Below, piece by piece: positions 50,535 to 52,127 of a DNA stretch of 52,630 nucleotides. The stretch covers positions 1-52,630 of the IMG/VR virus record IMGVR_UViG_3300025093_000028; one strand, given 5' to 3'. How positions within the stretch are numbered: position 1 is the stretch's first letter; each line of letters opens with the position of its first letter. The stretch is from a virus (lineage: Duplodnaviria; Caudoviricetes). Made by a program: the position numbers and the translations under genes. Below the pieces are notes generated by a model, which did not search any database, had not been told where the DNA came from, and saw only the letters and a program-made list of their open reading frames with translations.

Positions 50535-50563
50535 AAAAAAGCCCCAATCAAGGGGCTTATATT
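50535..50563. terminator. Terminator between convergent modules (U-tract on the - strand)
   Basis: A6, then GCCCC-aatcaa-GGGGC, then TTATATT. Confidence 0.75.
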
Positions 50564-50879
50564 ATTTACATCCGTATTTACATTTCTTTTTTACAGACTT
50601 ACCTTTCTTTGCATAACCCATTTTGTTACGCACAGCTGTAGGTAATTTTTTAAGTCCTACTTGTTTAGCTGTAGGCTTCTTTAACTTCTTACCAGCCTTA
50701 GCTTTCATTTTGGATTTAGGTGGTACCATAGAGGCAGCTTTGCCACCATAGCCCATCTTTTTAACTTTCTTACCAGCTTTGGCTTTCATAGACTTACCAT
50801 AGCCAGCTTTCTTTACTTTGGATCCTGACTTAGCTTTTTTCATAGTTTTGCCATATCCTGCTTTTTTATGCATTGCCAT
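50562..50879 (-). CDS. Histone H1-like, Lys-rich repeat protein
   Basis: 105 aa with no acidic residues; KK(A/M)GYG-type repeats. Confidence 0.7.
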   Translation of the reverse strand: MAMHKKAGYGKTMKKAKSGSKVKKAGYGKSMKAKAGKKVKKMGYGGKAASMVPPKSKMKAKAGKKLKKPTAKQVGLKKLPTAVRNKMGYAKKGKSVKKKCKYGCK

Positions 50880-50898
50880 AATTTTATAATTTGAGAGG

Positions 50899-51198
50899 TT
50901 AACATTTCCACCTACGTCTAGCTTGTCTTATTCTAGAGTTAGGATTATTTCTAGTTTTTGCACTACTTCTTTTTAACTGTCCCAAACTACGAGCGCAATA
51001 AGACTTACGTCTCTTTGCAGCTTTAGATCCCTTCTTCACCTTTCCTGTAACAGCAGTTTTTAACTTGCTTCCAGGATTAGCTTTTCTATAGGCTTTTACA
51101 CCTTTCTTAGTCATACCAGCACCCTTCTTGGTAGGTCTGTAGTTAGCACCTTTACCCTTAGTGGTTTTTCTGATAGGATTTTCTTTCTTACGAGCCAT
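50899..51198 (-). CDS. Highly basic small protein
   Basis: GAGMTKKGVKAYRKANPGSKLKTAVT...RRKSYCAR...ARRRWKC, a family recurrent in aquatic phages. Confidence 0.75.
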   Translation of the reverse strand: MARKKENPIRKTTKGKGANYRPTKKGAGMTKKGVKAYRKANPGSKLKTAVTGKVKKGSKAAKRRKSYCARSLGQLKRSSAKTRNNPNSRIRQARRRWKC

Positions 51199-51200
51199 GG

Positions 51201-51473
51201 TTATTTCTTCTTTTTAGTAGATCTCTTACGCTTTCTAAGCGCACTAGTCCTCCTACCCATGCCCACTCTTTTCTTTTCAGCTACAACAGCAGCTTTACGT
51301 TTACCAACACCTTTCCATGTAACTGGTGTTTTCTTACTAATTTTCTTTGTAGGACGACATTTCTTAACGCCTTTATTCTTGGAAGATCCACAGGGGTTAC
51401 CCTTTTCATCTTTCCACTTTTCCTTAAACCAACGTTTAAGAGCAGCGCCTTTCTTTGTCTTCCTTACAGCCAT
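51201..51473 (-). CDS. Highly basic small protein
   Basis: LKRWFKEKWKD...PCG...KCRPTKKISKKTP. Confidence 0.75.
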   Translation of the reverse strand: MAVRKTKKGAALKRWFKEKWKDEKGNPCGSSKNKGVKKCRPTKKISKKTPVTWKGVGKRKAAVVAEKKRVGMGRRTSALRKRKRSTKKKK

Positions 51474-51733
51474 TAGTTCTTCACTGTTCGTTTGTTAATG
51501 ATTCGTTTACCTTTACGATTCATTATCTTAACATAGTCAGTCGTTAGTTTTTTTTTAATGATGATTTCTACATCCTCATTAGCATAAACTTTTTGTATTA
51601 CATTGATTATGGGGTTGTCCTCATTTGATTCTAACCACTCAGTAGTTGCTGTGATGTCTTTCTCAGCCACCACTTTACCACTTCCACAACTTGTTAGTAA
51701 TACAACTGCTAATATTAAGATTAACTTTTTCAT
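51473..51733 (-). CDS. Lipoprotein
   Basis: ATG at 51733: MKKLILILAVVLLTSC, a type II signal peptide with lipobox. Confidence 0.7.
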   Translation of the reverse strand: MKKLILILAVVLLTSCGSGKVVAEKDITATTEWLESNEDNPIINVIQKVYANEDVEIIIKKKLTTDYVKIMNRKGKRIINKRTVKN

Positions 51734-51737
51734 AGTG

Positions 51738-51818
51738 TTATTTTTTAAGTGTACACCATCCAACACATACAGTCTTGAAAGTGGTGTAGTATATTAATTT
51801 ACATATGAACTTCTTCAT
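51738..51818 (-). CDS. 26-aa Cys-containing mini-protein (MKKFICKLIYYTTFKTVCVGWCTLKK)
   Basis: Hand-translated; fills the gap with 5- and 4-nt spacers. Confidence 0.55.
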   Translation of the reverse strand: MKKFICKLIYYTTFKTVCVGWCTLKK

Positions 51819-51823
51819 GATGT

Positions 51824-51904
51824 TTACTTTAAGTGTGAACCATCACAATATCCATTAGGATCTTGCGTATTTCCACATCCACATTTAGGTCTTTCAGTTT
51901 TCAT
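51824..51904 (-). CDS. 26-aa CDGSH-type [2Fe-2S] mini-protein (MKTERPKCGCGNTQDPNGYCDGSHLK)
   Basis: Hand-translated; ATG 1 nt after the upstream stop; CxCx2T...P..YCDGSH. Confidence 0.75.
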   Translation of the reverse strand: MKTERPKCGCGNTQDPNGYCDGSHLK

Positions 51905-51905
51905 A

Positions 51906-52127
51906 TTATTTCTTTTTTCCTGCTCTACGTTTTCTGCATTTAGCAATAGCTCCACTGGCATAAGCAGAGGGAAATACCTTATACTGTGCTTTCACCTTGT
52001 GGTAACAAGCATCGTGATTAGGTTTAGAAGACTTACCCTTTTTAGCTTTGGGTGTTGCTTTCTTAGCCACTCTCTTACGAACTGTAGCTTTCTTTCTCCC
52101 TCTTACTTTAGATTTTCTAACTGCCAT
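51906..52127 (-). CDS. Highly basic small protein
   Basis: K/R-rich N-terminus plus DACYHKVKAQYKVFPSAYASGAIAKCRK. Confidence 0.75.
   Translation of the reverse strand: MAVRKSKVRGRKKATVRKRVAKKATPKAKKGKSSKPNHDACYHKVKAQYKVFPSAYASGAIAKCRKRRAGKKK

What the first reader, a model, noticed from the sequence alone, without database searches (positions are those of the whole stretch)
51824..51904. Minimal 26-aa CDGSH iron-sulfur protein
Seen: MKTERPKCGCGNTQDPNGYCDGSHLK, too short for the ORF track and coupled to the upstream stop (TAA-T-ATG). Known: CDGSH/NEET domains (C-x-C-x2-S/T-x3-P-x-C-D-G-S/A/T-H) bind a labile 3Cys-1His [2Fe-2S] cluster and can transfer it; here the loop is one residue longer. 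Inference: essentially the bare motif as a whole protein, acting as a phage Fe-S carrier, iron store or redox sensor.
Basis: partly seen in the sequence, partly recalled or inferred. Interest (0 to 1): 0.7.

Follow-up and report, generated by a model that had tools for sequence, protein, structure and literature searches.

The report
Motif-only CDGSH microprotein in a phage
A marine phage carries a real, conserved 26-residue gene that is little more than the metal-binding loop of the CDGSH iron-sulfur proteins, and the same tiny gene is widespread in marine Bacteroidota; whether it holds an iron-sulfur cluster or zinc is untested.

Summary
The ORF exists as described, on the minus strand (51824..51904), one base after the stop of the upstream gene. 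It is not chance: 0 of 100 shuffles of the window give the motif.

It belongs to a large microprotein family with the motif CGCG-x8-CDG[ST]H. I found it in 76 IMG/VR contigs (25 as stand-alone 25-33 aa ORFs) and in 118 of 120 fetched cellular loci, mostly marine Flavobacteriales. Synonymous sites are saturated (pS 0.72) against pN 0.24, which indicates purifying selection on a protein.

Homology to the CDGSH cluster-binding loop is supported:
- The family profile retrieves canonical multi-CDGSH proteins (E 1e-7).
- The same one-residue-longer loop sits inside bona fide two-motif CDGSH domains.

It lacks the beta-sandwich, N-strand and lid-proline motif that define a complete CDGSH domain, and no member reaches Pfam's threshold.

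In bacteria the gene is coupled to a YceI-like gene (66 of 118 loci) and to an FMN reductase gene (18 of 118), with fused forms of both.

Cluster binding remains untested; a zinc knuckle is a serious rival. Structure and dimer predictions were uninformative. I rate it a new variant of a known kind, of moderate interest.

The parts
51824..51904 (-). 26-aa microprotein gene (with its stop): MKTERPKCGCGNTQDPNGYCDGSHLK
   Evidence: Conserved as a stand-alone 25-33 aa ORF in 25 of 76 viral loci and in about 100 of 118 cellular loci. pS 0.72 against pN 0.24 in the 8 codons the search pattern did not fix.
51833..51883 (-). CDGSH-like metal-binding motif, CGCG-x8-CDGSH (3 Cys + 1 His; loop one residue longer than the canonical motif)
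   Evidence: single match, 0 of 100 shuffles. In 103 sequences C, G, C, G, G(-2), C, D, G and H are invariant, and T and S are at least 90% conserved.
51906..52127 (-). Upstream 73-aa lysine-rich gene (weak DUF5872 match); its TAA stop lies one base before the microprotein's ATG
   Evidence: PF19197, E 0.0027, below the cut-off. The pairing is not general: 0 of the 80 fetched loci with relatives of this gene carry the motif.
51738..51818 (-). Downstream 26-aa Cys-rich hydrophobic ORF (MKKFICKLIYYTTFKTVCVGWCTLKK), starting 5 bases after the microprotein's stop
   Evidence: Conserved in L024 with 4 synonymous and 2 non-synonymous changes. In L024 its ATG overlaps the microprotein's TGA stop.

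Best explanation
The ORF is a translated, selected gene for a 26-residue microprotein that consists of a CDGSH-type 3Cys-1His metal-binding loop and nothing else. The loop is a variant one residue longer than the canonical motif, with an invariant Gly two residues before the third Cys. The same variant also occurs inside ordinary two-motif CDGSH iron-sulfur domains. The family is native to marine Bacteroidota, where the gene is translationally coupled to a YceI-like gene and often to an NADPH-dependent FMN reductase gene. Tandem two-module forms occur in Opitutales. Phages of these bacteria carry the module either alone, as here, or fused to other small domains. My committed mechanism is inferred, not shown: the peptide binds a solvent-exposed, labile [2Fe-2S] cluster through Cys8, Cys10, Cys20 and His24. 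It works in pairs (homodimer or tandem) or docked on a partner, as a very small redox or electron-carrier module at the cytoplasmic face of the membrane. The phage copy supplies or replaces this host function during infection. Sub-confidences: real conserved protein 0.95; homologous to the CDGSH cluster loop 0.85; binds [2Fe-2S] rather than Zn or a single Fe about 0.5; acts in pairs about 0.4.
For: Coding and conservation:
- 76 viral loci carry the motif. By my count are stand-alone 25-33 aa ORFs, behind different upstream genes whose stop abuts or overlaps the ATG.
- 118 of 120 cellular loci carry it.
- Across 112 distinct DNA sequences the 8 unconstrained loop codons give pS 0.72, pN 0.24. 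Every other frame has stops in 31-106 of 112.
- Window against L024: all 4 substitutions in the 26 sense codons are synonymous; a fifth changes the stop codon.

Homology to CDGSH:
- All 5 PDB matches of the family profile at E<=10 are CDGSH proteins, aligned on the ligands with a one-residue gap (not significant, best E 0.51).
- 53 of 103 members hit Pfam zf-CDGSH at E<=10, and no other metal-finger family appears.
- The profile finds 251 cluster representatives at E<=1e-3, among them canonical multi-CDGSH proteins P0104 (E 1.2e-7) and P0155 (E 6.5e-6).
- P0120, P0108, P0136 and P0102 are Pfam-positive CDGSH proteins (49-87 bits against a cut-off of 29.5). Each has one motif with this same x9 loop and Gly at -2.
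- P0120 matches the solved type-6 CISD 3tbn at E 1.3e-21 and human CISD3 6avj at E 7.6e-16, with the single gap inside motif 1.
- The residues that Lin et al. list as universally conserved for iron coordination and structure maintenance (C, C, S/T, C, D, G, S/T/A, H) are invariant or at least 90% conserved here.

Redox context:
- A YceI-like gene lies directly upstream in 66 of 118 cellular loci (Pfam confirmed on 3 of them).
- An FMN_red gene starts 62-68 nt after the first Cys codon in 18 of 118 loci, and 12 loci have both (Pfam on 1).
- A module-TM-YceI fusion forms a cluster of 130 members. One module-FMN_red fusion was found (P0055).

Pairing:
- Tandem two-module proteins occur in 16 Opitutales or other Verrucomicrobiota loci. 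This parallels the single-motif-dimer versus tandem-motif-monomer rule stated for CDGSH domains (PMC3174974; PMC5859297).
Against: - No member reaches Pfam's gathering score. The window peptive itself gives no hit at all, its 45-aa reading gives 14.2 bits, and the best E among 103 members is 0.0052.
- Only the last third of the Pfam profile (positions 29/32-48 of 48) is matched.
- The N-strand, the hydrophobic residue before the first Cys (here Lys or Gln), the conserved loop Pro at its canonical place, the GP-phi-x-phi lid-proline motif and the beta-sandwich are all absent. Lin et al. state that the module requires that sandwich.
- A cluster on a 26-residue hydrophilic peptide would be fully exposed.
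- Fusion partners include ribosomal protein bS16, Rho_N/HeH-like domains (weak, below cut-off) and other small phage domains. By my own knowledge, not a tool result, such partners together with the basic flanks are what one expects of a structural zinc knuckle.
- JGI's automatic name is 'CDGSH-type Zn-finger protein'.
- The phage record holds neither YceI nor FMN_red, and the phage neighbourhoods share nothing with the bacterial one.
- Transcription evidence is weak. Contigs from one RNA-library sample cover 51684-51885 and 51631-51891, but DNA carry-over cannot be excluded.
- The FMN_red fusion is a single contig and could be a sequencing error at the stop codon.
Confidence: 0.5

Rival explanations
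1. It is a structural zinc (or mononuclear iron) knuckle. The Cys3His set binds one metal ion that folds the peptide, and the microprotein acts as a small adaptor that binds a partner protein, the ribosome or nucleic acid. It has no cluster and no redox chemistry.
For: - The peptide has no hydrophobic core and no beta-sandwict to shield a cluster (the requirement is stated in PMC3174974).
- It has basic flanks.
- The module is appended to ribosomal protein bS16 in 2 loci, to Rho_N/HeH-like domains (weak, E 0.014-0.025, below cut-off) and to other small phage domains.
- The automatic annotation reads 'Zn-finger'.
- From my own knowledge: short Cys3His knuckles bind Zn readily.
Against: - The whole CDGSH signature is kept (T after CxCxx; D, G and S between the third Cys and His), at invariant or at least 90% levels. 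A generic Zn site would not need it.
- The same loop variant replaces a canonical motif inside bona fide CDGSH iron-sulfur domains.
- The gene is coupled, and in one case fused, to an FMN reductase.
- No zinc-finger family other than zf-CDGSH is hit by any of 103 members.
Confidence: 0.35
2. The real product is the 45-aa protein that starts at the ATG at 51961, as gene callers record it. The CDGSH loop would then be its C-terminal half.
For: The frame is open from 51961, and a 45-aa protein identical to this reading is on record (P0001). L024 has the same longer open frame.
Against: - The extra 19 codons lie inside the upstream gene. Against L024, 3 of the 4 substitutions there are synonymous in the upstream gene's frame and change the residue in the alternative frame.
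- Family members in other contexts start 3-10 residues before the first Cys and have unrelated upstream sequence.
Confidence: 0.05
3. It is not a gene: a chance ORF, or a conserved non-coding element that happens to be open.
For: The ORF is very short. tblastn against 50,697 phage records found nothing, and neither PHROGs nor NCBIfam has a family for it.
Against: - 0 of 100 shuffles give the motif.
- Hundreds of copies show wobble-position variation and conserved residues.
- The module is fused in frame to other proteins.
Confidence: 0.02

Closest known systems
CDGSH iron-sulfur domains (CISD/NEET proteins; Pfam PF09360 zf-CDGSH; solved examples 3tbn, 3tbm, 6avj)
   Same: It has the 3Cys-1His ligand set in the same order, with the same CxCxx(S/T) start and CDG(S/T)H end. 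The family profile retrieves canonical repeat proteins. The identical long-loop variant is found in Pfam-positive two-motif CISDs that match 3tbn at E 1.3e-21. Single and tandem forms both exist, as in class I and class II CISDs.
   Different: The loop is one residue longer (x9), with an invariant Gly at -2 instead of the conserved Pro-hydrophobic pair. There is no hydrophobic residue before the first Cys. There is no N-strand, no lid-proline motif and no beta-sandwich: the protein is 25-33 residues against about 60-130. It scores below Pfam's threshold. Cluster binding is untested.
Rubredoxin-type small iron electron carriers that work with flavin reductases (recalled from general knowledge; functional analogy only)
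   Same: It is a very small cytoplasmic Cys-ligated metal protein whose gene is coupled to an NAD(P)H-dependent flavin reductase gene (18 of 118 loci; one fusion).
   Different: No sequence relationship was seen (no Pfam hit). The ligand set is different (3Cys-1His). It is about half the size, and no activity is known.
FeoB-associated Cys-rich membrane protein (Pfam PF12669)
   Same: Membrane-anchored variants of the module (L075, L042, P0126) consist of one transmembrane helix followed by a short Cys-rich tail. L075 matches PF12669 at E 8.7e-4.
   Different: The match is below the cut-off (19.9 against 27 bits) and covers residues 3-36, mostly the helix. The window's protein has no helix.
SecA-type metal-binding domain (SEC-C motif, Pfam PF02810; recalled from memory as a lead)
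   Same: It is a roughly 20-residue Cys-rich knuckle that appears at the ends of many unrelated proteins and also as small stand-alone proteins.
   Different: None of the 103 members matched PF02810 at E<=10. The spacing and the CDGSH signature differ.

Membership tests
CDGSH iron-sulfur domain (PF09360 / CISD) | Three Cys and one His in the order C-x-C ... C-x3-H | tested here: met
   (Cys8, Cys10, Cys20, His24). These are invariant in 103 sequences.
CDGSH iron-sulfur domain (PF09360 / CISD) | 17-residue motif spacing, with 8 residues between the second and third Cys (PMC3174974) | tested here: not met
   There are 9 residues here and in the whole family. The same x9 variant does occur in Pfam-positive CISDs P0120, P0108, P0136 and P0102.
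CDGSH iron-sulfur domain (PF09360 / CISD) | Conserved (S/T)7, D14, G15 and (S/T/A)16 of the motif | tested here: met
   T16 and S26 are at least 90% conserved; D24 and G25 are invariant, in the numbering of alignment A2.
CDGSH iron-sulfur domain (PF09360 / CISD) | Hydrophobic residue before the first Cys, and the conserved Pro-hydrophobic pair before the third Cys (the dimer-interface residues) | tested here: not met
   Lys or Gln precedes the first Cys. The loop Pro is shifted by one position and is not conserved (L, N, A, E, S or K in some members). Gly at -2 is invariant instead, and the residue at -1 is mostly Y, F or H.
CDGSH iron-sulfur domain (PF09360 / CISD) | Beta-sandwich dimerisation module with N-strand and lid-proline (GP-phi-x-phi) motif | tested here: not met
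   Only 7 residues precede the motif and 2 follow it. Pfam aligns only profile positions 29/32-48 of 48.
CDGSH iron-sulfur domain (PF09360 / CISD) | Score at or above Pfam's gathering threshold (29.5 bits) | tested here: not met
   The 26-aa peptide gives no hit and the 45-aa reading gives 14.2 bits. 53 of 103 members hit at E<=10, with a best E of 0.0052.
CDGSH iron-sulfur domain (PF09360 / CISD) | Binds a [2Fe-2S] cluster | not testable with these tools
   This needs reconstitution and spectroscopy. The AlphaFold2 models were of low confidence (pLDDT 64.7 and 56.3).
SEC-C motif metal-binding domain (PF02810) | Match to the family profile | tested here: not met
   0 of 103 members match at E<=10.

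The most novel reading that the evidence does not exclude
This would be the smallest natural iron-sulfur protein. A 25-30 residue peptide holds a [2Fe-2S] cluster with the CDGSH ligand set but without any beta-sandwich, and works in pairs. In marine Bacteroidota it would shuttle electrons between an FMN reductase and a membrane YceI/isoprenoid-quinone system. Phages would carry their own copy to hold up or redirect that redox or iron circuit during infection.
Probability: 0.3. Interest if true: 0.8.

Novelty: new variant of a known kind. Interest (0 to 1): 0.55.

Why it matters
If the peptide binds a cluster, the CDGSH cluster-binding loop can stand alone. That contradicts the published view that it needs a beta-sandwich partner module (PMC3174974). 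It would also give a natural 26-residue scaffold for studying labile 2Fe-2S chemistry and minimal or ancestral Fe-S proteins.

Whatever the metal, this is an abundant, overlooked microprotein of marine Flavobacteriales. One 30-aa form is on 228 contigs. It has a clear genetic partner, YceI, a family whose function is itself poorly understood. It recurs in phages, so it is a tractable case of a phage-borne host microprotein that standard gene callers and family libraries miss.

No Pfam, NCBIfam or PHROGs family captures it. Six full-text searches found no paper on a phage-encoded or motif-only CDGSH protein. Supplementary files of Lin et al., including their 'orphan' CISD alignment, could not be seen and might list such sequences.

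Tried and rejected
- tblastn of the 26-aa peptide and of the 46-aa P0003 against 50,697 phage records: no match. Short, low-complexity queries are probably filtered, so this says little.
I used the window's own 45-aa reading and a degenerate DNA pattern instead.
- PF09360 search of the phage record: no match.
- Synteny with the upstream DUF5872-like gene: 0 of the 80 fetched relatives' loci (the best 80 of 594 confirmed) have the motif. That pairing is local to this phage and L024.
- AlphaFold2 of the 30-aa form with 103 sequences gave pLDDT 64.7 and no secondary structure. Foldseek against the PDB gave no match, and VIA-align against 48,161 chains gave no Z>=2.
- AlphaFold2 of the tandem form gave pLDDT 56.3. 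The models were too poor to compare ligand geometry, and coordinates are not returned.
- Complex prediction with two copies plus two 2Fe-2S clusters gave no verdict (score 0.25 against a mark of 0.42, controls not run). This is no evidence either way.
- The ESM Atlas returned only the protein's own unnamed clusters, plus a 46-aa zf-CDGSH cluster at 0.80, which is a lead only.
- NCBIfam and PHROGs have no family for it.
- RNA: contigs from one metatranscriptome sample (X15 and X16) cover most of the ORF. Contigs cannot show a transcript and DNA carry-over is possible. Parts of the stretch without cover say nothing.
- RiPP precursor or metallothionein readings were considered and dropped. There is no leader/core variation, there are only four ligand residues, and no modifying enzymes are among the conserved neighbours.

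Full report
**Observation.** The minus strand of 51824..51904 encodes MKTERPKCGCGNTQDPNGYCDGSHLK followed by TAA. The upstream minus-strand gene (51906..52127, 73 aa, a weak DUF5872 match) ends AAG AAA TAA. The degenerate DNA pattern for CGCG-x8-CDG[ST]H occurs once in the window and in none of 100 shuffles.

A longer 45-aa reading from the ATG at 51961 is open, and it is the form on record in protein collections (P0001). But it lies inside the upstream gene. Against the close relative L024, 3 of the 4 substitutions in that stretch are synonymous in the upstream gene's frame. All 4 substitutions in the 26 sense codons are synonymous; a fifth changes the stop codon to a sense codon and extends the L024 protein by 3 residues. 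The 26-aa gene is the real unit.

**The window.** The window is an IMG/VR virus record, linear, with an estimated completeness of 46%. It is a genuine tailed-phage fragment. It encodes a large terminase, portal and major head protein, and also a DnaB-like helicase, class I ribonucleotide reductase subunits and RecA.

**It is a family, not a singleton.** The pattern scan of IMG/VR returned 76 loci, and all 76 carry the motif in an open frame. My count:
- 25 loci have a stand-alone ORF of 25-33 aa. The consensus is M-x(2-6)-[DE]-[KR]-P-[KQ]-CGCG-[NC]-[TS]-x-[DN]-P-x-G-[YF]-CDG[ST]H plus 2-5 more residues.
- 31 loci have the module at the N-terminus of a 108- or 109-aa protein.
- 12 loci have it inside other 82-142 aa proteins. 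Some follow an N-terminal Rho_N/HeH-like segment (weak Pfam and PHROG hits). Others have a C-terminal helix-rich segment.
- The remaining 8 are 40-63 aa forms, two of them with an N-terminal transmembrane helix, plus one copy cut by a contig end.

The stand-alone copies sit behind unrelated upstream genes whose stop abuts or overlaps the ATG. Their neighbours are phage genes and share no homology with the bacterial neighbourhood.

Of these, 118 carry the motif in frame:
- About 100 are stand-alone ORFs of 21-42 aa, in Flavobacteriaceae, Cryomorphaceae, Polaribacter, Formosa and other Bacteroidota.
- 16 are two modules in tandem (44-63 aa as read from the ATG nearest the first motif), joined by a Pro/Ala-rich linker. 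These are in Opitutales and other Verrucomicrobiota.
- 2 are C-terminal extensions of ribosomal protein bS16 in Coraliomargaritaceae (Pfam Ribosomal_S16, E 1e-22).
- The two Micromonospora loci matched the DNA pattern but not CDG[ST]H.

A word-based protein search found 18 relatives. One is a 30-aa form seen on 228 contigs that JGI names 'CDGSH-type Zn-finger protein'. A profile of 103 members found 251 cluster representatives at E<=1e-3 among 1.84 billion.

**Selection.** Across 112 distinct DNA sequences I looked at the eight loop codons that the search pattern did not fix. They have pS 0.72, which is saturated, and pN 0.24. The other five frames contain stops in 31 to 106 of the 112 sequences. 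A Gly two residues before the third Cys was not imposed by the pattern, yet it is invariant in 103 sequences. A Pro two residues before the first Cys, the Thr after CGCG-x, and the Ser of CDGSH are each at least 90% conserved. This is a protein under purifying selection.

**Is it CDGSH?** Taken alone, the peptide is too short for significance:
- Pfam gives nothing for the 26-aa form and 14.2 bits (cut-off 29.5) for the 45-aa reading.
- 53 of 103 members hit zf-CDGSH at E<=10, with a best E of 0.0052. No other metal-finger family appears.
- The family profile against all PDB sequences returns five hits at E<=10. All are CDGSH proteins (3tbm, 3tbn and three CISD2 entries), with a best E of 0.51, aligned on the ligands with a one-residue gap.

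Two stronger results settle homology for me. First, the profile retrieves canonical-spacing multi-CDGSH proteins library-wide: P0104 with four motifs at E 1.2e-7 and P0155 with six motifs at E 6.5e-6. Second, the same long loop (nine residues between the second and third Cys, Gly at -2) occurs as one of the motifs inside ordinary CDGSH proteins. P0120, P0108, P0136 and P0102 score 49-87 bits on Pfam zf-CDGSH with 2-3 matched stretches. P0120 matches the solved type-6 CISD 3tbn at E 1.3e-21 and human CISD3 (6avj) at E 7.6e-16, with the only gap of the first motif falling in this loop. So the long loop is a natural variant of the cluster-binding module.

**What it lacks.** In the passages of Lin et al. 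2011 that I read (PMC3174974), a complete CDGSH domain is defined by several things. These are the 17-residue motif, a hydrophobic residue before the first Cys that belongs to an N-strand, a Pro-hydrophobic pair before the third Cys, a GP-phi-x-phi lid-proline strand and a beta-sandwich dimerisation module. [quoted passage not shown]

Here seven residues precede the motif and two follow it. The residue before the first Cys is Lys or Gln. The loop Pro is shifted by one position and is not conserved. It is therefore a homologue of the module, not a member of the domain family as defined.

**Context in bacteria.**
- In 66 of 118 cellular loci the gene directly upstream on the same strand is one family. 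Three members that I checked are YceI-like (PF04264, E 4e-24 to 1e-27). Its stop lies 21-36 nt before the first Cys codon in most loci, which puts it at or overlapping the microprotein's ATG.
- In 18 of 118 loci an NADPH-dependent FMN reductase gene (PF03358, E 3e-24 on the one checked) starts 62-68 nt after the first Cys codon, which is at the microprotein's stop. Twelve loci have both genes.
- Fusions say the same. P0167 is module + transmembrane helix + YceI domain (Pfam YceI, E 7e-23). It stands for a 90%-identity cluster of 130 members, and NCBI names one of them 'YceI family protein [Flavobacteriales bacterium]'.
- P0055 is module + FMN_red (27.2 bits against a cut-off of 24). It comes from a single contig, so it needs caution.

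The phage record has neither YceI nor FMN_red, and no Radical_SAM match either. The window's 22-residue core is 21/22 identical to a copy in a Cryomorphaceae genome that has the YceI neighbour. That points to exchange between phages and Flavobacteriales.

**Mechanism.**
- Shown: a selected microprotein with a CDGSH-type ligand set, homologous to the cluster loop, linked genetically to YceI and an FMN reductase, and existing in single and tandem forms.
- Inferred: it binds a labile [2Fe-2S] cluster through Cys8, Cys10, Cys20 and His24. It works in pairs or on a partner, as a minimal redox module at the inner face of the membrane. The phage copy substitutes for or perturbs that function.

The main rival is a Cys3His zinc (or single-iron) knuckle acting as an adaptor. 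The missing sandwich, the hydrophilic sequence and the bS16 and Rho_N/HeH-like fusion partners favour it. The full retention of the CDGSH signature and the reductase link argue against it. I put the cluster reading at about 0.5 and the knuckle at about 0.35.

**What did not help.** The AlphaFold2 models were of low confidence (64.7 and 56.3). Fold searches found nothing. The dimer-plus-cluster job gave no verdict. RNA-library contigs from one sample cover most of the ORF, but they cannot prove transcription.

**Novelty.** The motif and its chemistry are known, and one annotation pipeline already labels some copies. But no curated family captures the microprotein. Six full-text searches found nothing on a motif-only or phage-borne CDGSH protein. 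The supplements of Lin et al., which hold their 'orphan' set, were not available to me.

My verdict is a new variant of a known kind, with interest 0.55. It would rise to about 0.8 if a cluster is demonstrated.

Noticed in passing
window 51738..51818 (-): A second 26-aa ORF (MKKFICKLIYYTTFKTVCVGWCTLKK, hydrophobic, 3 Cys) starts 5 bases after the microprotein's stop. It is conserved in L024 with 4 synonymous and 2 non-synonymous changes. In L024 its ATG overlaps the microprotein's TGA. It may be another unannotated microprotein in the same coupled chain.
   Followed up: partly
window 51473..51733 (-): An 86-aa gene with a lipoprotein-type signal peptide (MKKLILILAVVLLTSCGSG; only a weak LPAM_1 hit) is present in the window. 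It is absent from the otherwise collinear relative L024, where the alignment breaks down exactly over it. This is an indel or moron between close phages.
   Followed up: partly
window 50562..52127 (-): A run of four very lysine-rich small genes (105, 99, 90 and 73 aa) surrounds the microprotein. The 99-aa one is 70-77% identical in DNA to genes of 17 Pelagibacter phage records. Its last 70 or so residues match the C-terminal ends of several much larger PHROG families of unknown function.
   Followed up: no
L199:957-1514 (+); L225:7221-7823 (+): In two Coraliomargaritaceae genomes, ribosomal protein bS16 carries a long Ala/Glu/Pro-rich C-terminal extension that ends in one CGCG-x8-CDGSH module (Pfam Ribosomal_S16, E 1e-22).
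   Followed up: partly
L164, L166, L176, L187, L188, L202, L207, L213, L215, L216, L235, L248, L250, L254, L267, L270: Opitutales and other Verrucomicrobiota encode two modules in tandem (44-63 aa), joined by a short Pro/Ala-rich linker.
   Followed up: partly
P0167 and its cluster; P0099: Flavobacteriales proteins of 220 aa fuse the module, one transmembrane helix and a YceI domain. The cluster has 130 members and is annotated only as 'YceI family protein'.
   Followed up: partly
P0023 (94 aa): This protein has three modules in a row behind a 30-residue Ala/Arg-rich N-terminal extension that looks like an organelle targeting peptide. That would suggest a eukaryotic (algal?) member. The origin is not known.
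   Followed up: no
L011:2815-2898 (+) and L012:376-459 (+): In two viral contigs the microprotein gene sits 7 bases upstream of a gene of about 530 aa. By eye its N-terminus resembles a GroEL-type chaperonin. This was not checked against Pfam.
   Followed up: no
L001 and 30 other viral loci (for example L001:2301-2624): The commonest viral form is a 108- or 109-aa protein: the module followed by a conserved domain of about 85 residues with no Pfam or PHROG match. One of these contigs carries a giant-virus MAG label (L003).
   Followed up: partly
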